From NCBI RefSeq assembly GCF_018977255.1, contig NW_024704742.1, positions 45,758,001 through 45,822,000 on the forward strand: a stretch of 64,000 nucleotides of DNA, written 5' to 3'. Shown here piece after piece: positions 4,010-52,054 of the stretch. The notes beneath the pieces were generated by a model, which had not been told where the DNA came from, made no database searches, and saw only the letters and a program-made list of their open reading frames with translations. Positions within the stretch are counted from its first letter, which is position 1. Each line of letters starts with the position of its first letter. This DNA comes from Callorhinchus milii. Lineage: Eukaryota. The position numbers and the translations under genes were made by a program.

Positions 4010-4078
4010 ATTGCTTGCATTTGATATAGTACCTTTCATACCAGGAGGATGTCTCAAAGCACTTCACAGGATTTACTG
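4010..4078 (-). mobile_element. 3' end of an older SINE split by the L2 (continues 7918-~8000)
   Basis: Reverse complement of the SINE tail (ttgcatttgatatag...cttcacaggatttactg), resuming as taaagtg..caatttgcgcacaacaat after the L2. Confidence 0.8.
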
Positions 4079-4290
4079 GGCCTACTGACCCAGGTACTTA
4101 AACTCGACGCCGGAGCGAGTGCAGCCAGTCGGGGAGCGGCGACAGGAGAGCGCGGGGAGGAGCCTGGGCCTACTGACCCAGGTACTTAAACTCGACGCCG
4201 GAGCGAGTGCAGCTAGGCAGGGGAGGGAGGTGTGGGGACGGAGCGGGGAACTGCGACGTCATAGATTAGTTTTCAGGTGAGTGCGCGCGC
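4076..4290 (+). promoter_or_regulatory. CpG-rich L2 5' region with 88-bp-period tandem monomers (putative internal promoter)
   Basis: 50-bp identical direct repeat at 4076-4125 and 4164-4213; TATA-like TACTTAAA in each; CRE-like CGACGTCA 4254-4261; G4-type G runs 4220-4248. Confidence 0.6.
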
Positions 4291-7200
4291 ACAAAACAAA
4301 AAAAACAAAAAAACAAAAAAAAAAAAACCCTCCCCCCCCCCCCCCCCCCCCCCCAGGGCTCACATCAGAGCCCACTATGGTCCTGTTGGGTTCGATGCCC
4401 CAATCTACGGGATGATGCCATCCACCTGACCGCTCGCTCCCGGTCCCCGCGTGCGCACTATGGCTGCCGCTTTGACCCGAGCCCCCTCACCCCCTCCCTC
4501 CCTCCCCCCTCCTCTCTCCCCCCAAACCCTCCCCCTCTCCATCTATCCCGCTCTCTCCTCCTCTCTCTCCGTCCCTCTCGTCTTCTATCCCCACTTGACC
4601 CTCCCACAACCTCCCTCTGCTCCAGCCTGGGAATCCTCCGCCGGGCTCACCGCGGCACTCGGCGTTGGCTGTCCAGCAGCAGCCACACCGACTGCCCCAT
4701 TCCCCACCACACTCGCCACCCACCCCGGACACAGACCCGGGGAGTCAACCTCTCCTCCCTCATCCCCATCTCCCCACCCCTGCCTCACAACCTGGACCCC
4801 CCTCCCCTCCCACACACCCTTCTGTCAACCGCTCCCTCCACATCGGACTGCAAAATGTCCGCTCCCTCTGCAACAAGGCCCTGGTCATCAACGATCTCAT
4901 CCTTGATGAGAACGTTGATATCATGGCCTTGACAGAAACCTGGCTCACCCCAGGCGACACCTTCCCCCTCACGGAGGCCACGCCACCCGGCTACACCTCC
5001 CACCACATCCCCCGCCCCAACCGCCGTGGCGGTGGTGTTGCCCTTATCTCAAGGACACCACTTGCCCTATCCCCCTACTCCTCTGGCTCTTTCCCCTCCT
5101 TCGAGCACCTCACCCTCTCCCACCCCTCATTCCTCTCCCTTAAAATTCTCCTCCTCTACCGGCCCCCTAAAACCTCTCCCACCTTCATCTCTGACATTTC
5201 AACACTCCTCACATCTCTTTGCCTCTCCTCTGATCGCCTCATCATCCTGGGCGACTTTAACCTACACTTCACCCCCTCCTGCTCCATCTCCACAGACTTC
5301 TCTTCTCTTCTGGGCCAGTAGGCCCAGGCTCCTCCCCGCGCTCTCCTGTCGCCGCTTCCCTGCTCTCCTCACTCAACCTTTCCCTACACATAAACTCCCC
5401 CACTCACAGTCACGGCCACCCACTCGATTTGGTGATCACCCGGGGCCTCAGTGTCTCGGATGTCACTATTACCGACAAGGCCATCTCCGACCACTACTTC
5501 ATCTCCTTCACCACCTCCACCCCCCTCCCCACCTCCACCAGACCCACCACCATCTTCTACCGCCCTTGGAAGAAGTTACCCCCACAATCCCTAACCGATG
5601 CCTTGGAGTCCTCTGAACTCCTCTCCCTCTGGCCTTCAACCCTCACCGACCCCTCTTCTCCTCTCTCCCTCCTCCACAATATCCTCTCCTCCACACTCGA
5701 TACTCTTGCCCCCATCACTTCCCGCACTGTCTCCTACTCCCGCTCCTCCCCCTGGTACACCACCCACCTCCGCTCACTGAAATGCCAGGTGCGGGCTGCT
5801 GAGCGCACCTTTGTCAAATCTGGCCTAACGGTCCACCGACAAATCTGGCTGGACCTCCTCAAAATTTACCGCTCCACTCTAGCCTCGGCCAAGTCGTCCT
5901 TCTACTCCAGGATAATCCTGGAGGCGAAGAACAACCCCAGGCTACTGTTTTCCACCACATCCCGACTCCTCCGTCCCCCCCGCCACCCCGCGCAGGTCAT
6001 CTCCTCCAACCTTCACTGCGAGGAGATGCTGGATTTCCTTGAATCCAAGATCAAGGGAATCCGCTCCGCGGTCACTTCCCCTCCAACTTCCACCCACCAC
6101 CCACCCCTTCCCTCCCACACTCCTACCCATCCTCCCCTACACACCTTCGTACCCATTTCCCCACCCTCTGTCACTGAACTCATCCTATCCCTAAAACCAA
6201 CCACCTGCTCCCTTGACCCCATCCCCACTCCACTCCTTATCTCCCAGCTCCATTTTCTTGCCCCACACATCACTGACATCATAAACCTGTCCCTCTCCTC
6301 TGGCTCTGTCCCCATTCCATTAAAAACTGCCATCATCACGCCCACCCTGAAAAAACCCTCCCTTGATGCGTCGCAGCTATCAAGCTACCGGCCCATCTCC
6401 AACCTCCCCTTTCTCTCCAAGGTCTTGGAAAGAGTTGTCGCCTCCCAACTGCGCTCTTTCCTCTCCACCCATTCTCTTTTTGAACCCCTTCAGTCAGGTT
6501 TCCGTGCTGCTCATAGCACAGAAACTGCCCTGGTCAAGGTCACCAATGATATCCTGACCATCTGTGACCAGGGCTCCCTCTGTCTCCTCGTCCTCCTCGA
6601 CCTATCGGCAGCATTCGATACGGTCGACCACGCTATCCTACTCCACCGCTTGTCCTCCCACCTCAACCTTCAAGGCACTGTCCTTGAATGGTTTAGGTCG
6701 TACCTTTCCCACCGTCTTCACTTCGTCTCAACGAATGGCTTCTCCTCCACCCCCCGTACTGTCTCATGTGGTGTCCCTCAGGGCTCTGTCCTCGGTCCCC
6801 TCCTCTTCACCCTCTATATGCTCCCCCTTGGTGACATCATCCGCAAACATGGGGTTAACTTCCACATGTATGCGGATGACACCCAACTCTACCTTTCCTC
6901 CTCTACTCTCAACTCCACGACCACCGATGTCCTGACAGCCTGCCTGTCCGACATCGAGTCCTGGACGAGAGACAACTTTCTTCAGCTCAACGTGCGAAAA
7001 ACCGAGGCCCTCCTGATTGGCTCACGTCAGCGCCTCCGCACCTCAGGCGCTGACACCATCAGCATCCAAGGCTGCACTCTCCACCTCTCAAAGCCAGTCA
7101 GGAACCTCGGCGTTTTGTTCGACCCTGAGCTGTCCTTTCTCCCTCACATCCGCACCACAACTGGCACCGCCTTCCATCACCTCCGGAATATCGCCAGACT

Positions 7201-7917
7201 ACGGCACTACCTCACCCCTCACGCTGCTGAAACCCTGGTTCACGCCTTTGTCACCTCAAGGCTGGACTATGGGAACTCTCTCCTCGCCGGCCTTCCCGCC
7301 ACCTCCCTCCACAAGCTGCAGGTCATTCAGAACTCTGCAGCTCGTGTACTGTCCCGCACCAGGCTTCGGGACCACATCACTCCCACCCTCGCTCGCCTCC
7401 ACTGGCTCCCCATCCCCCAGAGGATTGATTTCAAGATCCTCATCCTCACCTACAAGGCCATTCACGGCCTTGCTCCCTCCTACCTCTCCAACCTACTATC
7501 CCCCTACCTACCTGCCCGTACCCTCCGTTCCTCTGGCTCCGGTCTGCTCCACGTCCCCCGCCCCAACCGCCCTACTATCGGTGGTCGGGCCTTCAGCCTC
7601 TCAGCCCCAGGCTCTGGAACTCCATCCCCCAGTGCCTTCGCCTTGCTTCCTCCCTTTCCTCCTTCAAGGCCGGTCTCAAAACCTTTCTCTTTGACCGTGC
7701 CTTCAGCTCCCCTCTCGACTCTCTTCCTCCTCCTCGCTCCCTCCCTTCCCTCCCCTCACCCTGACCATTTCCCCCTCCTCTCTCCCTCCCTTCCCTCCCC
7801 TCACCCTGACCATTTCCCCCCTGCTCGGGTCATGACGCAACTGTGCAGCGCCTTGGGACGTCCTCCTGACGTGAAAGGCGCTCTATAAATGGAATCTTGT
7901 TGTTGTTGTTGTTGTTG
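4079..7917 (+). mobile_element. Young, probably near-full-length L2-clade LINE inserted into a minus-strand SINE
   Basis: APE endonuclease and RT motifs; 3' stem-loop followed by (TTG)n tail; TTACTG on both sides (4073-4078, 7918-7923); the flanks rejoin into the SINE tail (..cttcacaggatttactg|taaagtg..). Confidence 0.93.
4357..7764 (+). pseudogene. L2 ORF2-type polyprotein (APE endonuclease + reverse transcriptase), about 1,100 codons, interrupted
   Basis: [71 protein letters not shown], and (shifted frame) [14 protein letters not shown]. Breaks: 1-nt frameshift near 4800, 53-bp insertion 5310-5362 carrying TAG 5319-5321, 1-nt frameshift near 7605. Confidence 0.9.
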
Positions 7918-9484
7918 TTACTGTAAAGTGCAGAGACTGGGTATTTTGCAGGCAATTTGCGCACAACAATATCCTACAAAGAACCAAGAAGTGCATGACC
8001 AAAGTCATGAGTGACAAATGACTAAATTATGCCTGCTGAAATATTTTTCTTCTTCACACACAAAACTTGTCATTGCGGGAATGATTCGCAAATGCAAAAG
8101 AAGCCAGAATTATGTTTTTTTTAGCAGAAACTGGGTCAGATGGTTCAATTTTATGATTTTAATAAGATTTGTTTAAATTATCGGACACAGCAGCCTCAAC
8201 GATTTGTGACTGGGAGGAATTCCTCTGCTACACGCTGAATGAAAAGTGCTAATTGCTTTTTACATATAGTATAGAGAGCAAATTAATGTGTGCCTATTGT
8301 AAAATTATCAGTATAATTATCAGTCCGTGAGTTTTGATTAGAATGTTAACACTTTGAATTGCTAAAAAACCAATGACTTGTTCCCACTGTTATTTTGTAT
8401 TGCAACTCTCATGACCATTAGATTTACTCAGATGACTACGGTTCTGTTTCGAGCAGACATTTCCATCAGTCTGAGTCTCGTAATGTAACAGTACCTTTTC
8501 CATCAGTTTTTAGTTTTGTTTAATCCTGTAATTCAACCTAGAATGTCTGAATAATTAGAATTTCAGATAGACGCACCTTACCCTGGTATCCCACTGCTGA
8601 CTCATTTTCTCCATTTAATCTGCCATTGTTGTCAAAATTCTCCCTGGAGTTAATTCAATTTGGAACAATCTCAGAGGATTTCGAACAGCCATGTGAATAT
8701 CTTTAATGCCATTTAAGAAAAATAGAGAAAGGCCAGATTGTAACTCGGAAACTAAACTTTATTTTTTATGAATCGAAAATTGTCAGGTGTTTTGAAGCAA
8801 AGTCATTATTCAAAATTTACCATGTTGCTGCTTACAGATGTCCTGATGCTAACTGTGTTGTCTGTGTTATTCAGTAAAGCTTACAACAATAACCCTTGCA
8901 TTTGATATACTGCATTTCTCACATTGGAAAGTACTTCATACGATTTACTCTAAAGTGTCGGGACTACATTTTGTGGAAACAACACACTAGATCGATCAAC
9001 AACAACAAATTGCATTTATAAAGTGCCTCTAAAATTGGGAGGACAACCCAAAGCACTGAAGGGTTTACATCCAAGCTGGAGATTGGAGTCAAGTGGGGTG
9101 GATGGCAAGGGGGATGGGGGTGGGAAATTGACCAAAAGCATCATCAAAGGAACGGGCCTTGAAGGAGGCAAGCAAGGGGGTAACATGGAAGGGCTCCGTG
9201 ATAGAGTTCTCGAGGGTGAAAACAGAAAGGTTTAAGGCCAGAGCTCCAATGGTGGGCAGGCAGTGCAGGAAATATGGAGAAGTTTAATATAAACAAGACA
9301 AAAATAATGCAGTGGTCAAAAGATGCAGTCGGTGATGTGATAATTATCACAAGAACAGAAAATATTGTTTTATTTTGTCCACAATGACAGGTTTGGGCTG
9401 AATGCTCGCACTTCTGAAGAATCATTTTGACATCAGCCTGTCACAACTGAATTGGTGCATTCTTACATTTTTATTACATTTTGT

Positions 9485-11789: not shown

Positions 11790-12113
11790 GGAGTCCTGTA
11801 GCTCAGTGGTTAGAGCACTCGCTTTGCAAGTGAGAGACCTGAGTTCAATTCCAGGCAGAGGGCGAAACCTTGGGCAAGTTTCCTTACTCCACACGCTTAA
11901 TAATAATCCCTCCAAAAAAACAAAACAATAATAAATTGGTCATTTTCAATCTACGACTGTTTGTGGGACATTGCTGTGCGCAATTGGCTGCCGCGTTCGC
12001 CCACAAATATACAGTCAATTCACTTTACAGTGTGTTCTGTGAAGCGCTTTGGGACGTCCTCCCGACGTGAAAAGCGCTATATCAAATGCAAGGATTATTA
12101 TTATTGTTATTAT
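11790..12113 (+). mobile_element. Young tRNA(Ala-like, TGC)-derived SINE with DeuSINE-type core and L2 tail
   Basis: A box TAGCTCAGTGG, anticodon arm ctcgc-tttgcaa-gtgag, B box GTTCAATTCC, intact CpG-rich 3' stem-loop, (TTA)n tail, possible ATAGT TSD; a second SINE tail follows at 12130-12207. Confidence 0.92.
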
Positions 12114-14879
12114 AGTAAATCCACTTGAAAATATATTCTGTAAAGCACTTTGAGATGTCTCAGCTACATGATAAGGTGCTGTATCAAATGCAAGGCTTAT
12201 TATTATAGCATGGAAGTTTTACAAAAGATGTACAACAATGAAGAATGTACAAATCACAGAAACAGGCTATTTGGTCTAACCGGTCTGTGTCAGTGAATTG
12301 AGCAGTTGAATTTGGTAAAAATGACTCAACACATTGGGGAGTTACCATCAAAAAATCTGTATTTATTTGCACTAATTTATTTTTCATTATTTCATTGTGG
12401 GATGCTGTTCACATTTGACATTGCGGTGTACGAAGAGTGTATGTTTATGATTTTGTGGACCTGCTAGCCTGAAAAGAGACAGAGCAATAAGAGAAACTGA
12501 AGTGTACAAGAGGCCCAGAGTTTGTGGTGTGATGAGGCTGCCATTTAGTCTATTGACTCAATTGGACAATAGTTGTGTGACAATAGTTCAGCAATGCTAG
12601 ATAAAAAGCCATGTTATCATAAAGTTTCCTCATTGCAAGAATTATGAAGTACGCTTGCAAAACCAGTTAGAGCAACAAGTTAACAGTATTTCATGCTAAG
12701 ATTTCAAGAGAGGAAATGGTAGGCAAAAGAAAAAATTCTGGATTGAAGGCAGGAATTCTCAGACATTGGAACGGAACACGTCATTACAGATAGAGGAAAT
12801 TAAAAGGGTTTCAAAGAAGTGCTACTGGCAATACATTTCTAGCTGTAAAAAACTATTTCTACAGCAAAGAGATTCAATGCAGAGGCCATCAATCACCAGA
12901 TAAGAAAAATAGGTCATTCACTTCATGGGTGTTTGTGGAATTGGCGTGTTTACCTACGAAATATGCAGTTACTACATTTTTACAGTAGGTCCTGTGACTT
13001 GCTTTGAGTCATCCTCCCAACGTTAAAAGTGCTATATCAACTACGAGGGTTCTTATTATAATCAAGCAAAGGGTTATTGTTGCTGGTTCCAACATTAGAA
13101 TGTATTTTCAGTGAGGAATAAGCATTACGACTGTGCAGGATGCAACTGGTTTTGTCAGCATCCCAAACACTACAACCACAGCTCAGCAAAACACATCATT
13201 TGTCAGCATGTGGGACACTTCCTGCCCACGGGAGGATGGTCTTGCATGGCAGGACTCTTAGGATATAAGCTAATCGTCTAACATTATAATTTCAGGCAAT
13301 CAAAGTCACTTTGTCACACAACCAGCTGAGGTTAACCAATTGAGGATGCATTTCTGGATCACAATTTCCAAATATGGGAACATATCAATATAATCCAAAG
13401 TGTTGACTTGCAGCAATATATATGTAAGATGGAATAATACTGGAACACAGCCATCATGTATTACATGTCTGTAGTCATTTGCATATAGCGTTTCGCACAC
13501 AAAATATACAGTTGATTTACTTTACAATTCGAGACCTCTCAAAGACCTGATCAGGCACTATATCAAATGCAAGGATTATTATTATTATTACTATTATCAA
13601 AATGGTCCTTGTAATGATTTATCAAATGGGTGAAAATGTAATATGTGATGTGATAAATGTCACTGGTCATTCATACTGGTTGGAAAGGGACACTGAAACT
13701 CAATGAGCAGCATCAGTGGTGATGGCTGCACACTTGAGCTGGCTTTGCGCCAAATCATTTTGCCAAACTCAAGAGGGGTGTTCACACATGGAACTATTCA
13801 ATAACTATATAGTACAGCTTGGGCCACAGCTTTAGTCAGCATGATAATCACCATCAGTGACATGTCCATCAACCATAACAACTTGCCCTTACGTAGTAGT
13901 GACTTCATGAAGTTGTTTGTCTCAAAACATTTTATGGAGATGGAGTGTGAGTCAGAGCAAGTTGAGAGATGGGGTGGGGGGAGGAGGAGGGAAATAACCA
14001 AATGCACAATCAAAGGCGGGTTATTAAAATATGTTTGGCAGTGGAGAGAGAGGATGTAAGACAGGAAGATTCAGGGAGAGAATTTCAAAGAGGGAAGACA
14101 ATGTCTCTCCCACAAATTGTGGGTGGAAGGGGCAGAGGCTGTGAAGCAGGCCAGATTTAAGCAGGTGGGTGAATAAGCCTCCTGGAGATCACAGAGGTAT
14201 TAGTGGGGCAAGGAGATTAAGGTATTTGAATATTAGAATGAAGATCTTCGGATGAGGATATAAAATTCATTTCAAATATTTACTGTTCTAGTTAATAACT
14301 ACTTTGTTATGTAACCTACTAATACATAGTTTTTTATCACAGTTCAGTTCCTTACAATATGTTTTGTGGACAGCAATGCAACAAATGTCTTGGGTATGAA
14401 CATTTTAAGATATAAACCAATATTTTCCTGTTTGTTGAAACTGACATGTAATGTTAATGTGCTCGAATACATTGTGCATTCACATTGTTCATTTTCAGCA
14501 TATTACAGCATAGCAAAAAGTGTGGCAAATAATAATATTTTTTTTGCCCTCCTATCTCATGAAACCTACATATATCTGTGCTTGTTGGAAATATACCCAT
14601 GCACATGTCGGTACTGGAAAAGGCAATGCATTGTTACTCCATGAAATATGTTTGTTACCATTGTAGCTAATGTGCACCAGAGAACTATAATGGTTGGCTA
14701 CAATGAGGAAGATATGTAACACTGAAAGCCCAAACTCCAGGTTATTGGCCATTTTTCTAAAGGTCCAGTGTCTCTACAGTACCACGATGTGTCCAACATG
14801 CACATTACCTGTACATAATAACAATATATATGTAATATAGAAGCATATGCTGAGCTATGCTTCTATAGTACCTATATTG

Positions 14880-15130
14880 TTATTGAGACACCTTACAGTT
14901 ATATAGTGCTCCTCACACAAGGTAGTATCCTAGAATGCTTGACAGTGGTGGAGCTTGACGCCAAGCTAGGGGAAGGGGGGAATTGACTGTAGGCATGGTT
15001 GAATAGGAAGATGTTCAGGTATGACCTGAAGATGGGAAAGAAAGGGCAAAGCAGAGGGCTAGAGGAAGCGTGTTCCAGAGTTTTGGGGCCCAGTAGCTGA
15101 AAGTGTGGCCACCAATGGTGGAACGGAAAG
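14880..15130 (-). mobile_element. Old L2 3' fragment
   Basis: gcgtgttccagagttttggggcccagtagctgaaag is the reverse complement of the FS.LGPKLWN region. Confidence 0.6.
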
Positions 15131-16505: not shown

Positions 16506-16860
16506 TTAAGGCAGCGATGAAGTTGTTCAAAGTCAGGAAGACGTTTAGGGTTGGATTGAATGTTTTGTTAATTTGACTCATTACAGACCTCAAATTTATT
16601 GAAATCTTATGCCTTTCAGCCTTTCATTTTTAAGATTATGTAGAATTGTAGGAAGTTCTTAATTCAGTCTTACTTTGGAAGCTGATAACTTTTAAGAACT
16701 GAAAGAAAACATAAAATGATTTTACAAAGCTGTCATTTTTTACAAGATATGAATTGGTAAATATTAAAAATGAGAAATAATATTAGGCTCTCAGAGTTTG
16801 TGTGCAAGTGATATCTGGCTATCATTGGATTTGACATAGCACCTTACCATGTCTTCCAGA

Positions 16861-17173
16861 TAATAATAATAATCCTTGCATTTGATATAGCGCTTTTCAT
16901 GTCGGGAGGACGTCCCAAAGCGCTTCACAGAATATACTGTAAAGTGAATTGACTGTATTTTTGTGGGCGAAATGCAGTGGTCAATTGCATACAGCAATGT
17001 TTCACAAACAGTCGTGGATTGAGTGACCAAATTATTATTTTATTTTTTTCTTAAGGGATTATTATCAGGCGTGTGGAGTAAGGAAACTTGCCCAAGGTTA
17101 CGCCCTGCCAGGAATCAAACCCAGGTCTCTCGCTTGCGAAGCGAGTGCTCTAACCACTGAGCTACAGGACTCC
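16861..17173 (-). mobile_element. Full-length tRNA-derived SINE
   Basis: Reverse complement of head (..taaccactgagctacaggactcc) and tail (ataatccttgcatttgatatagcgc). Confidence 0.92.
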
Positions 17174-18155: not shown

Positions 18156-19719
18156 TACCTGTTATGTACACCAGTAGTTGTTATACACTTCTGCACAAAT
18201 TTGAAATGCCACCTAATCTTAACTTATAAGACCATGTTGTGTTAAAATGTAAGGAGACCATGCAGAATTATGGAAATTTTTTAAATTCACTCCAAACTTT
18301 GGGACCAGTTATTTTTAAGACCTGTAGAAAACTAGCTCGCAAATTAGGACTGAATTTTAGTATTTTACATGTTCTGGCAACTTTAAATTTTAAGAACAAA
18401 ATGGTCTCACAGGTAAAGACTCAATGGAAATTTGGACCTTGGCAGACATCTACATACCTTCATAGTGAGCATATTACTTAATGGGTCAACAAAAACAACA
18501 TATTTACATTTATATAACACCTTTCATGTTGAGAGGATGCCCCACATCAGTGAAAGTGGTTAAAACCACTTACAAAGGAAAACCAGAAACATAGGGCTCC
18601 AAATTCTGCCTACTTTTAATCTGTAAAACTGTTTTTTCTTAAATTTAAAGATTACACAGAACTGAGGACTCTCACTTATGCATAAAAAGGTTAAGGATTC
18701 AAGTGCCACATCAGGAATTTTACCTCATAATCTAAGGTGACACTGTAGTACAGTGCTGAGTGAGCAATATGCGTCCCGCAGTTCAGGTGGATGTTAAGGG
18801 TCCCAAGGCAATATTTGACAAGAAAATAGGAATGATTTTAGCTTCCATTAACATCACTGTTGGATGCCCTGTTAATGTCCCACTGTCAAGACTCACTCAT
18901 GAAGAATGGACACTTTCTTAAGTTAGAGGAAGGCTATCACAACCTTGGAATCCTGATAATATTTTTTAAATGTGGTGCCTTTCATATTGGGAGGATGTCT
19001 CAATGCACTTCACAAGATATACTGTGAAGTGCATTGACTGTGTATTTCATGGTCCACATCTATCATTGGCTATTAATGGTAACCTCAGAAGAGATGAGGT
19101 GAAAAACATGATCAACACTTGATGATAAATTATTCTTAGAGTTTTACAACTTGATTATCGCATATCATGACAGGCATAAACCATTAGGGTTGAATTACTG
19201 GAGTTGATCAAATACATTTATCAGTAAAACTGAGTTTGTTTGTTCACGATGTCAGAGACCTTTCAATAATTAAAAAAAATCTGAAGTAGAAATTTCTCCA
19301 GTCGGACATATTTTAAATTATATATTTTTATTTGATCAGTGTGATATTCTATTATTCCCCAACATTTACCCTTTGTGGATAGTTCAGGAAGTTTGCCACA
19401 AATATAAATTTTTACTTCCCCTAGCTGTTTGGAATTAACAAATATAATTGGTTGTTTTATACTTTAGAATAAGACAACTGTGCATTTCCTAAAGGCATCA
19501 AACATTTGACATTCGTGCAGGCTTTTAGAGTTATTATCTTTTGATATGCTATAAAACTTGTACAAGTCTTGCCTTTATAAATTGTATAATCACTTAAGTC
19601 GTACATGCACTTGAAGCCCATTCAGTTTCCCACCAAAAAACACTTACATTTATTTGTACCAGTCGTATTTTATAAATTAGATAAGCACCTATATCATTAG
19701 GATTTATTGGTCCAAAAGA

Positions 19720-37266: not shown

Positions 37267-37994
37267 TGTTAGAAAATAAAATCAGCCAAATCTGTAAGGA
37301 AATAACGCTAATTCCTCTACCCAGATATCAGACTGTTTTATTATTATTCGTTCGTTATTCCCCAATATCCCGATGGGTCAGACCAAAGGCCGGTACAATC
37401 AACAGACCTTATAACAGAAAAACACCACTATAGATATCTCGAGTTCAAGAGTTCAACACTGTGTCTTTCCAGCACACAAGCTTGATTCTTCATGCTTTCA
37501 GTCTTCTTGCTTACAGCTTTCAATCTTCCATCTGATATCCTCAGTCTTAGTGTTTCCAGCTCTCAGTCTTCCATCTCCGTACCCTTGTCTCCGCAGCCCG
37601 GGATGGCCCCATATCCTTGGCTCCGCGACCCGGGACAGCTCCATCTCCTGTATCCTTGTCTCCATGACCCGGGACGGCTCCATCTCCCGTATCCTTGTCT
37701 CCGTGACCCGGGACGGCCCCGTACACAAAGTTATCGGAACTCTTATACCAATGTTCATCCAATCATGGTGCGGACATTAGATCACCTGTCGAAATCATGC
37801 CGGGTTCACGTGAACACCTCATGGGGTGTACGTGCCTCACACACACAAACACACTGTCCTTGAGACAGTCCGTTATCTCGTGTACATGCAGGGAGTTTCA
37901 GTCCAGCTGCCCACAACACACTTAACTTAAAAGTTAACCCGTTCGCAACATCTATTGTGATTCTAACATTATACAAAAAGTGTAAATTCTAACA
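37267..37994 (-). repeat. 3' LTR
   Basis: Direct repeat of 38724-39458, preceded on the minus strand by the PPT. Confidence 0.9.
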
Positions 37995-38723: not shown

Positions 38724-39458
38724 TGTTAGAAAATAAAATCAGCCAAATCTGTAAGGAAATAACGCTAATTCCTCTAACCAGATATCAGACTGTTTTATTA
38801 TTATTCGTTCGTTATTCCCCAATATCCCGATGGGTCAGACCAAAGGCCGGTACAATCAACAGACCTTATAACAGAATAACACCACTATAGATATCTCGAG
38901 TTCCAAGAGTTCAACACTGTGTCTTTCCAGCACACAAGCTTGATTCTTCATGCTTTCAGTCTTCTTGCTTACAGCTTTCAATCTTCCATCTGATATCCTC
39001 AGTCTTAGTGTTTACAGCTCTCAGTCTTCCATCTCCGTACCCTTGTCTCCGCAGCCCGAGACGGTCCCATCTCCCGTATCCTTGTCTTCGCGACCCGGGA
39101 CGGCTCCATCTCCCGTATCCTTGTCTTCGCGACCCGGGACGGCTCCATCTCCTGTATCCTTGTCTCCGTGACCCGGGACGGCCCCGTAAATAAAGTTATC
39201 GGAACTCTTATACCGATCTTCGTCCAATCATGGTGCGGACATTAGATCACCTGTCGAAATCCTGCTGGATTCACGTGAACACTCATGGGGTGTACGTGCC
39301 TCACACACACAAACACACTGTCCTTGAGACAGTTCGTTATCTCGTGTACGTGCAGAGAGTTTCAGTCCAGCTGCCCACAACACACTTAACTTAAAAGTTA
39401 ACCCGTTCGCAACATCTATTGTGATTCTAACATTATACAAAAAGTGTAAATTCTAACA
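38724..39458 (-). repeat. 5' LTR
   Basis: TG..CA ends with 8-bp inverted termini; minus-strand ATTGG then TATAAG (~39207-39228); AATAAA near 38794-38799; 39-bp tandem array. Confidence 0.9.
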
Positions 39459-47700: not shown

Positions 47701-49639
47701 ATGTGGTAAATATATTGTCACTAAGGTACTCTGTTGCTAAGCAGGCACAAAATGTGCATTTTCCAAGTAAATGCTCCGATATCAATGTACAGTATAGAAT
47801 AATAGCTGATTTGGAAGTGCATTGCAAGAATATAAAACAACCTAATAGAAAACATGAGATTGAAACTTCAATGATTTATACATTCACAGTCACGAGATTT
47901 ACTATCGCTCGTAATGCACATTTCCAGACAGTTGTTTTCTAAAATATATTTTTGCATTTATTTTGAGCTTTTTATAATCTTCTGGCTCCACAATCAAATG
48001 CTGTTCAGACTTTTAACATCTACTTCACTGTTACAATGTTTTTATCTTTCTTTGCCAGGAGGTTGAGTTCTGATATTTTTCCATTGCACTGTTGTTAATG
48101 CATTTTGACCAGTCAAGAAAAGTTTGTAATGTTGGATAATTAAGTGACCACGTGATCAGAAGAGAAAAAAAAATTGTTCACTTCTGATATCCGCTACCAT
48201 AACCAGAGATTTTGCCAGTTTATATATAACCTATTTTTGGAACATTTTTATTCGATCTTAAGATAAGACATCAGCAGTTTGATATATCTTAAAACATAGG
48301 ATCCCTCACATCTCCTTCAGAGCACGTTTTTCTGGTAGCTATAAAAATCTTACTGAAGTCTAATACAAGCCTTTTCCCCTACAAAATCCTGCAGTGATTT
48401 GTCACAGAGCTATGGATAATGGTCTTGCAGTGTCACAAGCAGTTTGTGGAATGTCTCTGTTTCTCACAGAAATGCATTAGTCGGATGCAAAAAGTCCCAA
48501 AGCTTATGAAAAGCTACTTTTCCTGTCCAGTGCACTTACATAAAGCTTATATATTAACTTCAGGCACAAAGTCTGTTAGAAGGCAGTCCAGAGCAACAAG
48601 TTGATCTGACCTGGAGCAGTTAAACTACATCCTGCAATATCACGAAACAGTCAAACCTTGTTATTACAAACTACGGTTGAGGGATAATCTGAATCCAAAA
48701 CCCGGGAGCTTATTCACAAAACTAGGTTAAGTGTATGTTATTTGATGCATGCTGTAAATGGACATTGAAAATGAATTGTCTATTTTGTTCTGCAGCGTTA
48801 TAATATATTCTATTCTCTATAAAGACATTTGTAGGTATCTAATTAAAGCATAGTAGATTGCAACAATCTCATTGCTTTGCGGAGCATATAATGTAATCAC
48901 GTTACATATTATGTCACTTACCAATACAGGCCATTTGTTTATGTGCTTGTTGGCATCTCTAGGTGTGCAGTCAATGGATTAGGGAAGGTTACAGAATATC
49001 TCCAATTAAAATCAGTGGGGTTTTTTGCTGATGTTTAAGGCAGTAAGGACATTTAGAACTAAAATACTTTTCAAAGATATTGTAGCAGACATGCAAAAGA
49101 ATATGTTTGTGTATAGAGACCAACAAGTGACGATTCCTATCAAGATTACTTGGTAAAGGAACCAGAAGGAAGTCACGCTGACTTACAGGAAGTTCGACTC
49201 TCACATGATGTTAACTCAGAATGGATGGTGTCTGCAACATATGTTTGGTTACTAAAAGAGGTTCCCACTCAATTTCCTTAATAAGGAATTAGATATCGGG
49301 AAATATTAAAACCCTTTTCCATAACTTGCTCTCACATCTGGTTGAATGCTTAGTTTAGGTGCAATATCATGCCAGCTTATTAACCATCAAGGTTGGCTAT
49401 TAAAATTACCTTTGTCTTGTCCTGAACTGGAGTAATGTACTGATGCGGGTGGGACATTTTCATTTGTAAAAAAATCTTTGTCCTGCGATAAGCTACTTGG
49501 CAAAAATTTTTTTACTGAAAATGGAGGCATCCAAGAGTGTGAGCTCTCTCCAATGATTCAAATGCAATGAATGCTCAGCTAGGAGGCTCAAATATAAGAG
49601 ATAGAACTCCCCAGTACTCTTGTAGATTAAAGCACCACT

Positions 49640-50087: not shown

Positions 50088-50386
50088 AACTGGACTGGTA
50101 GTAAATGTTTCCCAAACGTTAGCTACAAGTGGTAGAAAACTGCACATAATCTTATAACTGTATAATGGGTTTTTGATTCATCCAGTGCAAAAAAAATGCA
50201 AGATGTGCTGCAATTTAAGATAATAATAATCCTTGCATTTGATATTATCATTATCTTAAATTGCAGAACATCTTGCATTTCTTTTGCACTGGATGACTCA
50301 AAAACCCGTTATACAGTTATTATAAGATTATTTGCAGTTTTCTGCCACTTGTAGCTATCCTTTGGGAAACATTTACTACCAGTCTA

Positions 50387-50389
<3 letters not shown>
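50088..50389. repeat. Long inverted repeat (143/146-bp arms, 13-nt loop)
   Basis: Arms 50088-50230 and 50244-50389, about 10 mismatches plus one 3-bp indel by eye. Confidence 0.95.

Positions 50390-50422
<33 letters not shown>
50388..50422 (+). repeat. (TTA)n microsatellite
   Basis: Direct reading. Confidence 0.95.
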
Positions 50423-52054
50423 AGATTACAGGCAACAAAATCATCAAACTTATCTGGAAATTCTTTTGATCTTCAGATCTGTGCTTGGATTGAATTCTTG
50501 TGCCCAAGGATCTTTGCACTTGAATCCTTCCAGAAACACAGCAAAAGCTTCTCATGTTTTACAAAAATGAACTGCTTTGTTTTGGTTATGTCCTTTTCAC
50601 AGTTTCTAAAATATGTGCCATTTCAGCACAGAATATCAAGTAAACTCATTACATCAGGGAAGACTCCCAGCTGACCTAGAAGAACTCTTCTTCCTACATT
50701 CACAAAGGAAAAAACCCAAAAGATTAAACAAGAGCTAGCATTGAAGTAAAGATTGCTGGCAATAAAACAGGATACCAAACACTGTAGCAGAAGCATCACA
50801 CTTGGAATAAAGGATGGGATGGTTATTTGATAAGTAATGCCAATTACTGCAATTAAAATACATTGATCCTATTTGAATTGCCAATATTTATCAGCATCAT
50901 ATTTTTAAAACTATGATTATTGCAATATGATTCATATAGTAAAACTGCCAGTGAAACAATTTTTTACACAATTTGTAACCTGCAATTTGCAACCTGCAAT
51001 TTGCAACCTGCACCTATTAGTGGAATTAGGTGTGAAGAGTGAGTTCCTCCAGAGAAAAAGGGCACATTGAATTCCAGACGCAGGGAAATTTCCATGTATA
51101 TATGGAGGTTTTAGTCTGGTTGGAATATTCTGAACTATGGAGTTGAGTTTCTGTGTGTGTCAAACATCTAGATGACTAAAACAAAAATATTTAAATATGT
51201 AACATAATCACATGATTGGCCCAATATATCTATAGATGTAAAATGTTCCCTAAATACATGGTCAAATTTGATGCACAATTCAGAAAGGTTCGTATTTATG
51301 CAGTCTGTTTGGTTTCCCCAAGTAATCGTTCTGACAAAAAAATTCCCCTCTGACAAAAATTACCAACATTATCCTTTTTGAAGAGGACTCTATAAATGCA
51401 ACTTGTTCTAATTTATTTTTGTGAACATCTTAAATTTGCACCCTCAGATGACTAACTCGCTGACCAGTGAAAATAATTTATTCGTGTTTATTCTAGTTGG
51501 TGTTACGGTATAAAACTGAAGAGATTTTAGTAGCCTTTTCGGCTTTAACATGTTTCTGCTTCCCGATCCTGCTCTATTTAAGTGCTATTGAATGGCTAGA
51601 TGCTTCATCACTGTTATTGGATCTGTTTCTTATCTTTCACTAATTTTTATTTGTTGTGGCTTGTGACTGTGAACATTACAATTTCCCTAGATATACAATC
51701 AAATTGGACAATTAAGCACAACAATATTTTTGGCACTGCTTGTCACTAGAAAACACTCAGTCAAACTGACAGATAACTAGCAAACCCCCAGAGGCTAATA
51801 CAAACAAATAGATATGCAGTGAGGAATGAAAGTGAAAATATGCAAGTGTCCTTGTGTTGCTTCAGTTTATATACTGATCGATTGGAGCGTCCATTTATAA
51901 TTTGTAGACTGAGATACAATTAAACTTAAATACTCAGGCGTTGGGGAAATTGATATTGTTCAAAGATAAATTATTAAGTGGATGGGCTAAGTATTGAGAT
52001 GCAATTTCATGTGGCTATAAGTACATTTATCAGCATTGGTGCTGGAAACATAAT

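What the first reader, a model, noticed from the sequence alone, without database searches (positions are those of the whole stretch)
50088..50422. Fold-back palindrome whose loop is a SINE 3' tail: footprint of aborted target-primed reverse transcription
Seen: arms of 143 and 146 bp at about 93% identity. The apex ATAATAATCCTTGCATTTGATAT is the reverse complement of the SINE terminus (ATATCAAATGCAAGGATTATTAT), and a (TTA)n run like the SINE tail follows the right arm. Inference: RT copied about 25 nt of SINE RNA, then switched to flanking DNA, giving an inverted duplication. The product could form a cruciform or, if transcribed, a long dsRNA (ADAR or Dicer substrate). With the 5310 insert, this suggests a template-switch-prone L2 RT.
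Basis: partly seen in the sequence, partly recalled or inferred. Interest (0 to 1): 0.7.

Follow-up and report, generated by a model that had tools for sequence, protein, structure and literature searches.

The report
Aborted SINE insertion that folded back
A jumping element began inserting, stopped after about 25 bases, and the new DNA end folded back and copied about 145 bases of neighbouring DNA in reverse, leaving a long palindrome that is most likely a one-off scar of a known kind with no sign of function.

Summary
The palindrome is real: arms 50088-50230 and 50244-50389, 133 of 146 columns matching, 13-nt loop. The apex 50220-50245 is the exact reverse complement of the 3' end of the local tRNA-Ala SINE. 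New here: a candidate 6-bp target-site duplication (TAAGAT, 50216-50221 and 50421-50426; chance 0.3-0.45%) brackets a 199-nt insert, so the left arm is host flank and the right arm the copy. The fold-back uses 2 nt of microhomology inside the new tail. The outer junction, AG(TTA)nTAAGATTA, copies a site inside the arm, so the (TTA)n run is probably locally templated, not a second SINE tail. The duplication and that match share letters and are not independent. No other contig lies on the left arm in 4 of 4 runs, so a MITE is unlikely; the right arm is not confirmed outside the window. Best reading: aborted L2-driven insertion, snap-back synthesis, microhomology joining. This is a known class (R2 snap-back, L1 templated insertions, ZfL2 extra nucleotides). 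Earlier scan notes report related SINE-plus-inverted-host-copy events elsewhere in this genome. Nothing shows that the RT did the DNA copying, or any function.

The parts
50088..50215 (.). Left arm: inferred original host DNA (3' flank of the SINE in its own orientation), template of the copy
   Evidence: One long contig runs through it from the left flank in 4 of 4 runs, and bin 50104-50167 has only that contig's depth; no other copy in the window
50147..50159 (-). Site inside the left arm whose reverse complement, AG-TTA-TAAGATTA, matches the outer junction with the TTA run collapsed
   Evidence: 13-nt match; 0 of 21,146 overlapping window segments reach 10 (test designed after seeing the match)
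50216..50221 (+). Candidate target-site duplication, left copy (TAAGAT); its last AT overlaps the SINE tail (possible priming microhomology)
   Evidence: 6-nt match across both junctions; chance 0.33% (47 of 14,082 random flanks) and 0.45% (33 of 7,322 local flanks)
50220..50245 (-). 3'-terminal 26 nt of the tRNA-Ala-derived SINE, including about 3.7 ATT units; reads as first-strand cDNA on +
   Evidence: heads of full copies called tRNA-Ala and tRNA
50231..50243 (.). 13-nt loop, wholly SINE-derived
50244..50245 (+). 2-nt (AT) microhomology at the fold-back point, pairing with 50229-50230
   Evidence: Sequence against SINE copies
50246..50389 (+). Right arm: inverted copy of the tail start, the duplicated site and 128 nt of flank; inferred snap-back product
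   Evidence: seen in the window only
50388..50420 (+). (TTA)11 run at the outer junction
50421..50426 (+). Candidate target-site duplication, right copy (TAAGAT), directly after the run

Best explanation
A one-off scar of an aborted SINE insertion by L2-type machinery, finished by local templated repair. (1) The + strand is nicked after 50221 and primes reverse transcription on the SINE's (AUU)n tail (inferred from the tail's orientation and the duplication). (2) cDNA stops after about 24 nt (the truncation point is shown). (3) The cDNA 3' end folds back on its own tail through 2 base pairs, closing a 13-nt loop, and is extended on the strand it is attached to for 144 nt (the product is shown; the order is inferred). 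(4) The two ends are joined through a short patch templated from 50147-50159 or its new copy, with stutter or later expansion of TTA; the 6-nt staggered cut is filled in as a duplication (inferred). Whether the L2 reverse transcriptase or a host polymerase such as Pol theta did steps 3 and 4 cannot be told. The arms have since drifted apart, with no sign of function.
For: Exact 26-nt SINE 3' end cut at the fold point. 6-bp direct repeat at both insert boundaries, chance 0.33-0.45%. 8 of 16 other SINE/L2 copies examined gave junction words of 5-7 nt, some probably by chance, no null run. ZfL2-1 duplications peak near 5 bp (PMC4245944), 20 of 25 ZfL2-2 inserts had one (PMC2666801), and zebrafish L2 5' junctions show 1-2 bp microhomology or extra bases copied from flank or LINE DNA (PMC4760211). 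Pol theta extends stem-loops from two terminal pairs (PMC11292364). Outer junction matches an arm site over 13 nt; 0 of 21,146 segments reach 10. Left flank, arm and tail to 50240 lie on one contig in 4 of 4 runs of one study.
Against: No empty site was seen, so the duplication is inferred from one sequence. The duplication and the 13-nt junction match share the letters TAAGAT: if the patch alone made them, the duplication is chance and there may be a deletion instead. Growing one or two TTA units to 11 needs extra stutter. An exact tail does not date the SINE piece: 6 of the 17 other tails listed are also exact over 26 nt. A 144-nt copy is longer than the short patches described in the Pol theta and SD-MMEJ passages read. 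Only 1 of 32 tail hits in the window shows such a copy.
Confidence: 0.55

Rival explanations
1. Same aborted insertion and snap-back, but the (TTA)n run is a second cDNA primed from the opposite target end on the SINE's (AUU)n tail (twin-priming-like), then annealed to the end of the copy. This is closest to the first reader's view.
For: The run has the tail's unit, lies in the opposite orientation and abuts the candidate duplication. It explains 11 units without later expansion. Inserts made of two oppositely oriented RT products are described for L1 (PMC11702581 section 7).
Against: It leaves the 13-nt match to the arm site as chance (0 of 21,146). Perfect ATT tails on the window's SINE copies reach 16 nt at most in 18 hits, against 33 here. 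ZfL2-1 gave no 5' inversions in either cell line, ascribed to its short overhang (PMC4245944).
Confidence: 0.17
2. A SINE or SINE remnant was already here. A later break or replication template switch inside it folded back at the self-complementary AT-rich tail, copied the flank and removed the rest of the SINE. Retrotransposition only supplied the substrate.
For: SINE tails are dense (24 SINE-type hits in 64 kb), so roughly 1% of random fold-backs would centre on one (my estimate). Template switching makes hairpins in one step (PMC10710096 passages). The outer junction fits SD-MMEJ, which needs no retroelement (PMC2943611 passages).
Against: The return point would have to fall exactly on the old SINE's 5' duplication, leaving no SINE body; the 6-nt repeat sits directly at both boundaries.
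Confidence: 0.17
3. The right arm is an assembly artefact or an allele private to the assembled individual.
For: The right arm has been seen only in the window; no independent sequence confirms it.
Against: The arms differ by 10 substitutions and one in-phase 3-nt indel, with a longest identical stretch of 24 nt, unlike a read-level fold-back or a very recent event (inference). The left contig enters the tail in 4 of 4 runs and never breaks at the arm's outer end.
Confidence: 0.08
4. The palindrome is a multicopy MITE or foldback element with long terminal inverted repeats.
For: Size and long inverted arms resemble a MITE (recalled).
Against: At 80% likeness only one contig's depth lies on 50104-50167 in 4 of 4 runs, while up to 69 contigs per run lie on the known repeat near 51070. 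No other copy in the window. No duplication flanks the palindrome's outer ends: no shared word lies at both ends and the longest is 6 nt, far from them. No look-alike note in the scan index.
Confidence: 0.03

Closest known systems
Snap-back 5' junctions of R2-protein insertions (PMC11371274; passages)
   Same: [quoted passage not shown]
   Different: Engineered R2 in human cells at rDNA, often after full-length cDNA. Here an L2-type SINE in a germ line, with 24 nt of cDNA and synthesis running through the tail into 128 nt of flank.
L1 templated insertions (bioRxiv 10.1101/2024.08.27.596794; passages)
   Same: Non-element DNA copied into the insert, typically under 250 bp and within 15 bp of the site; 22 cases among about 3,600 insertions classified.
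   Different: Human tumour L1. The orientation of those templates is in a supplementary figure that I could not see.
5' extra nucleotides of zebrafish L2 elements, 'annealing' pathway (PMC4760211 passages; PMC4245944 parts 2-4 of 5; PMC2666801 passages; Kajikawa 2012 not read)
   Same: Same LINE clade; duplication near 5 bp; 1-2 bp microhomology; extra bases templated from flank or element DNA, with a host polymerase suggested.
   Different: The passages read give no case of a long inverted copy forming a palindrome, nor their length range.
L1-associated foldback junctions (PMC11702581; passages and section 7)
   Same: The TPRT-extended 3' end self-anneals into a hairpin, with cDNA at the turning point and 2-bp microhomology in one example.
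   Different: Those are large rearrangements resolved by replication; this is a 199-nt insert rejoined to the opposite target end.
Snap-back SD-MMEJ and Pol theta stem-loop extension (PMC2943611, PMC11292364; passages)
   Same: Hairpin priming from two pairs; a junction contained in an inverted repeat of nearby sequence.
   Different: Described patches are short; no retroelement is needed.
CmiSINE / SacSINE1-CM with partner L2-2_CM (PMC5499810; passages and section 8)
   Same: tRNA-Ala head, tail shared with an L2; 48 of 56 columns alike between SINE and L2 tails in this window.
   Different: I did not compare with the consensus sequences. The families share one tail, so 26 nt cannot be assigned to one of them.

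Membership tests
TPRT insertion (L2-mobilised SINE) | Intact element 3' end with repeat tail at one boundary | tested here: met
   Exact 26 nt with ATT tail
TPRT insertion (L2-mobilised SINE) | Short target-site duplication at both insert boundaries | tested here: inconclusive
   6-nt repeat, chance 0.33-0.45%, but the same letters are explained by a templated patch and no empty site was seen
TPRT insertion (L2-mobilised SINE) | Empty orthologous site | not testable with these tools
   No genome held; no relative among the runs listed; no joint across the insert
TPRT insertion (L2-mobilised SINE) | Partner LINE with a shared 3' end in the genome | tested here: met
   L2-type copy 4076-7920 with endonuclease and RT domains; 48 of 56 tail columns alike; its terminal repeat is (TTG)n, so it need not be the actual partner
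Snap-back / templated 5' junction | [quoted passage not shown] | tested here: met
   50246-50389 is the reverse complement of 50088-50228
Snap-back / templated 5' junction | Microhomology at the switch | tested here: met
   2 nt at the apex; 2 nt is also frequent by chance
Snap-back / templated 5' junction | Copy made during integration, not later | not testable with these tools
   Needs outgroup alleles
SD-MMEJ-consistent junction | Junction inside one half of a repeat of at least 4 bp within 20 bp (criterion in PMC2943611) | tested here: inconclusive
   13-nt match only after collapsing the TTA run; the nearest partner (50315-50330) is about 60 nt away, beyond the paper's 20 bp
Twin priming | Inverted part is derived from the element RNA | tested here: not met
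   The inverted 144 nt is host flank; only the TTA run could be RNA-derived
MITE / foldback transposon | Multiple genomic copies | tested here: not met
   One contig on the left arm in 4 of 4 runs at 80% likeness; single in the window
MITE / foldback transposon | Duplication flanking the outer ends of the inverted repeats | tested here: not met
   None at the ends
Functional hairpin RNA (miRNA, endo-siRNA, ADAR substrate) | Transcription and processing or editing | not testable with these tools
   No RNA data were laid; no Rfam match here; no host exon among 138 of 388 unmasked reading frames scanned
CmiSINE / SacSINE1-CM | Match to family consensus (head, CORE or Deu body, tail) | not tested
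   Consensus not available to me; only the tRNA-Ala head of other copies was checked

The most novel reading that the evidence does not exclude
Snap-back at this exact point is a recurrent outcome for this SINE family, because the cDNA pauses where its end can pair with its own (AAT)n start. The genome would then hold hundreds of single-copy palindromes with the same 13-nt SINE loop, missed by repeat annotation because under 30 nt of SINE remains. They would be a standing source of long hairpin RNAs (raw material for miRNA, endo-siRNA and editing) and a countable fossil record of how L2 insertions are aborted and joined. With about 520,000 SINE insertions (PMC5499810), a rate like that of L1 templated insertions (22 in about 3,600) would give thousands of templated events, of which these would be a subset.
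Probability: 0.2. Interest if true: 0.5.

Novelty: new member of a known kind. Interest (0 to 1): 0.22.

Why it matters
As a single locus it matters little: a neutral scar. It is an unusually complete germ-line example, with the cDNA stop, the fold-back point, the copy length and the final join all readable in 200 bases. It extends snap-back junctions, described in R2 and L1 experiments, to an L2-type SINE in a cartilaginous fish. It would matter more if a genome-wide count showed a stereotyped class, which would link aborted retrotransposition to the birth of long hairpins.

Tried and rejected
Right arm in public runs: not covered in 4 of 4 runs laid (bin 50296-50359 depth 2.5, 0, 2.2, 5.0; bin 50360-50423 depth 0; the tool skips 50380-50430). 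The shares of words held (0.81, 0.80, 0.77, 0.77) fit missing right-arm words (expected 0.80-0.82) better than present ones (0.92-0.94). I draw no conclusion from this. The piece would be a short path between two very deep repeats, these contigs are described as lossy and simplified by SPAdes-like rules (10.1101/2024.07.30.605881 passages), removal of such short connections is recalled and not read, and hairpins can drop out of libraries. A differing allele is not excluded either. No RNA holder listed. No whole genome was held, so the genome-wide enrichment test could not be run. A metagenome scan for the tail gave 2 loci, both isolated 21-34-nt matches without SINE body. A search for a duplication at the palindrome's outer ends and for arm extension beyond them found nothing (local score 18 against a shuffled mean of 19.5). 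The two next-best inverted-flank scores among 32 tail hits (35, 37) were gappy AT-rich matches. Host gene: 138 of 388 unmasked reading frames of 40 aa or more were scanned with Pfam; one hit below cut-off (zf-RING_14, 48398-48601), so intron or intergenic is unresolved. Strand bias of arm differences: of 5 transitions, 3 give G-U pairs on + and 2 on -, no signal (read). Five literature searches (listings only, open-access library) showed no paper on SINE-tail-looped palindromes in cartilaginous fish; subscription papers are not covered. Scan index by sequence, near, relatives and words gave no matching locus.

Full report
Setting. The window is repeat-rich vertebrate DNA with a tRNA-Ala-headed SINE and several L2-type LINE copies; the copy at 4076-7920 carries endonuclease and RT domains. 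Earlier scan notes call the genome elephant shark (not checked by me). The SINE fits the description of CmiSINE/SacSINE1-CM, which share a tail with L2-2_CM (PMC5499810, passages and section 8); the consensus sequences are in a figure and a supplement that I did not see. No whole genome was held.

Observation. The arms are 50088-50230 and 50244-50389: 133 of 146 columns match, with 10 substitutions and one 3-nt indel. The loop is 13 nt. Folding z-scores are about -30 as RNA and as DNA. It is by far the strongest hairpin in the window. Positions 50220-50245 are an exact reverse complement of the SINE's last 26 nt. The SINE match stops at 50245, and the right arm starts at 50244, so two bases (AT) belong to both. 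The right arm first copies the tail itself, then the flank.

TAAGAT lies at 50216-50221, directly before the tail, and at 50421-50426, directly after the TTA run. A match of 6 or more across both junctions arose in 47 of 14,082 random flanks and 33 of 7,322 local flanks. This makes 50222-50420 a 199-nt insert: 24 nt of SINE, 144 nt of copy, 31 nt of run. The length fits L2-clade biology: ZfL2-1 duplications are 1-8 bp with a peak near 5 (PMC4245944). In this window 8 of 16 copies examined gave 5-7-nt junction words, clearest at 11790, 16089 and 4076; no null was run for these.

The outer junction reads AG, (TTA)11, TAAGATTA. The right arm holds AG, (TTA)2, TAAGATTA at 50315-50330, and the left arm the reverse complement with one unit at 50147-50159. 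With the run collapsed this is a 13-nt match; none of 21,146 overlapping 111-nt segments reached 10 (a test made after seeing the match). The copy ends on AGTT, which can pair with AACT in that site, so the patch would explain where copying stopped. This resembles synthesis-dependent microhomology joining (PMC2943611 passages), though the partner site is farther away than that paper's 20-bp criterion. The caveat is that the duplication and the patch use the same letters. One coincidence of about 0.3-0.8% is needed either way. I favour a true duplication because 20 of 25 ZfL2-2 inserts had one (PMC2666801), but a small deletion cannot be excluded.

Copy number. Contigs of four runs of one study were laid at 80% likeness. 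One long contig runs from the left flank through the left arm into the tail, ending at 50240, in 4 of 4 runs; bin 50104-50167 has exactly that contig's depth. The known repeat near 51070 draws up to 69 contigs per run. A right-flank contig is laid from 50431 in 4 of 4 runs. No joint skips the insert. The right arm itself has no independent confirmation; what was tried is under Tried and rejected.

Mechanism. Shown: the truncated tail, the 2-nt overlap, the inverted copy, the two repeats at the outer junction. Inferred: nick after 50221; about 24 nt of reverse transcription; intrastrand fold-back; 144 nt of DNA-templated synthesis; joining through a local patch with TTA stutter; fill-in of a 6-nt stagger. 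The enzyme for the DNA-templated steps is open. Pol theta extends stem-loops from two pairs (PMC11292364 passages), and a host polymerase is suggested for ZfL2 extra bases (PMC4760211 passages). Arm divergence (JC 0.073) gives 33-37 My at 1.0-1.1e-3 per site per My, 95% range 17-65 My (rate from PMC5499810). The same paper cites a rate about six times slower, and conversion between arms or error-prone synthesis would shift the estimate, so this is only 'not recent'.

The 5310 insert. It is 53 nt long relative to two other L2 copies, breaks the frame between the endonuclease and RT parts, and 51 nt of it are an inverted copy of the same element's 5' region at 4131-4181. A jump along one RNA gives same-orientation pieces (PMC11702581 section 7). 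An inverted piece from 1.1 kb upstream needs the opposite strand, so second-strand synthesis, later repair or an antisense RNA (inference). It does not show a switch-prone RT, and that L2 ends in (TTG)n.

Is it a pattern? Only 1 of 32 tail hits in the window has an inverted copy of its 3' flank at its 5' side (score 220 against 16-37; a few rows share an element). A second, older hairpin at 14817-14884 abuts the 3' end of another L2-type fragment (score 42 against 23-26 as the best of three shuffled windows). That is one extra case in a different geometry. Earlier notes describe related events elsewhere in this genome (e1-7812105, e1-7791279, e1-7812720); they are unchecked leads.

Function. 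None found. No Rfam match here, no host exon among the 138 frames scanned, no strand bias in arm differences. A 13-nt loop and a longest perfect stem of 24 bp argue against ready cruciform extrusion (recalled knowledge). If transcribed it would fold into long duplex RNA, but transcription is untested.

Comparison and verdict. It is not twin priming in the strict sense and not a MITE. New member of a known kind; interest 0.22. The bolder reading, a stereotyped genome-wide class of SINE-looped palindromes, is not excluded (0.2) and is easy to test with the genome.

Noticed in passing
window 14817-14884: Second significant hairpin (29 and 31-nt arms, 8-nt loop) directly after the 3' end of an L2-type fragment on the minus strand (14888-15127), where the tail would be; possibly a fold-back at a 3' junction.
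   Followed up: partly
window 4076-7920: Apparently full-length L2-type element with a candidate TTACTG duplication, an 88-nt-spaced repeat in its 5' region, a 53-nt inverted self-copy near 5310 and a 45-nt tandem duplication near 7724-7820.
   Followed up: partly
window 50421: In run X4 the right-flank contig appears to begin exactly at the first base of the candidate duplication (648 long, 638 laid from 50431), while in X1-X3 it begins 22-23 nt inside the TTA run. A second allele could cause this, but the left contig does not break at 50221 and no joint is listed.
   Followed up: partly
window 50189-50196: The A run has 8 bases in the window but 2 more in 4 of 4 runs; the right-arm copy is 8 long.
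   Followed up: no
window 50220-50255 (contigs from other loci): One or two contigs per run match the apex to 50255 and then go back to 50220, which suggests tandem SINE tails at other loci (tables 5 and 5c).
   Followed up: no
window 19000-19037: Perfect 15-bp hairpin inside a degraded SINE fragment, at the SINE's own imperfect stem; possibly perfected by a template switch.
   Followed up: no
window 37267-37994 and 38724-39458: 730-nt direct duplication at 95% with internal 39-nt tandem repeats, inserted within an L2 copy.
   Followed up: no
window 11790-12206 and 16800-17173: Full SINEs followed by a second SINE tail (12111-12206 on +; a degraded tail near 16840 on -).
   Followed up: no
window 50969-51012: Three tandem 14-nt units next to a dispersed repeat at 51021-51184.
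   Followed up: no
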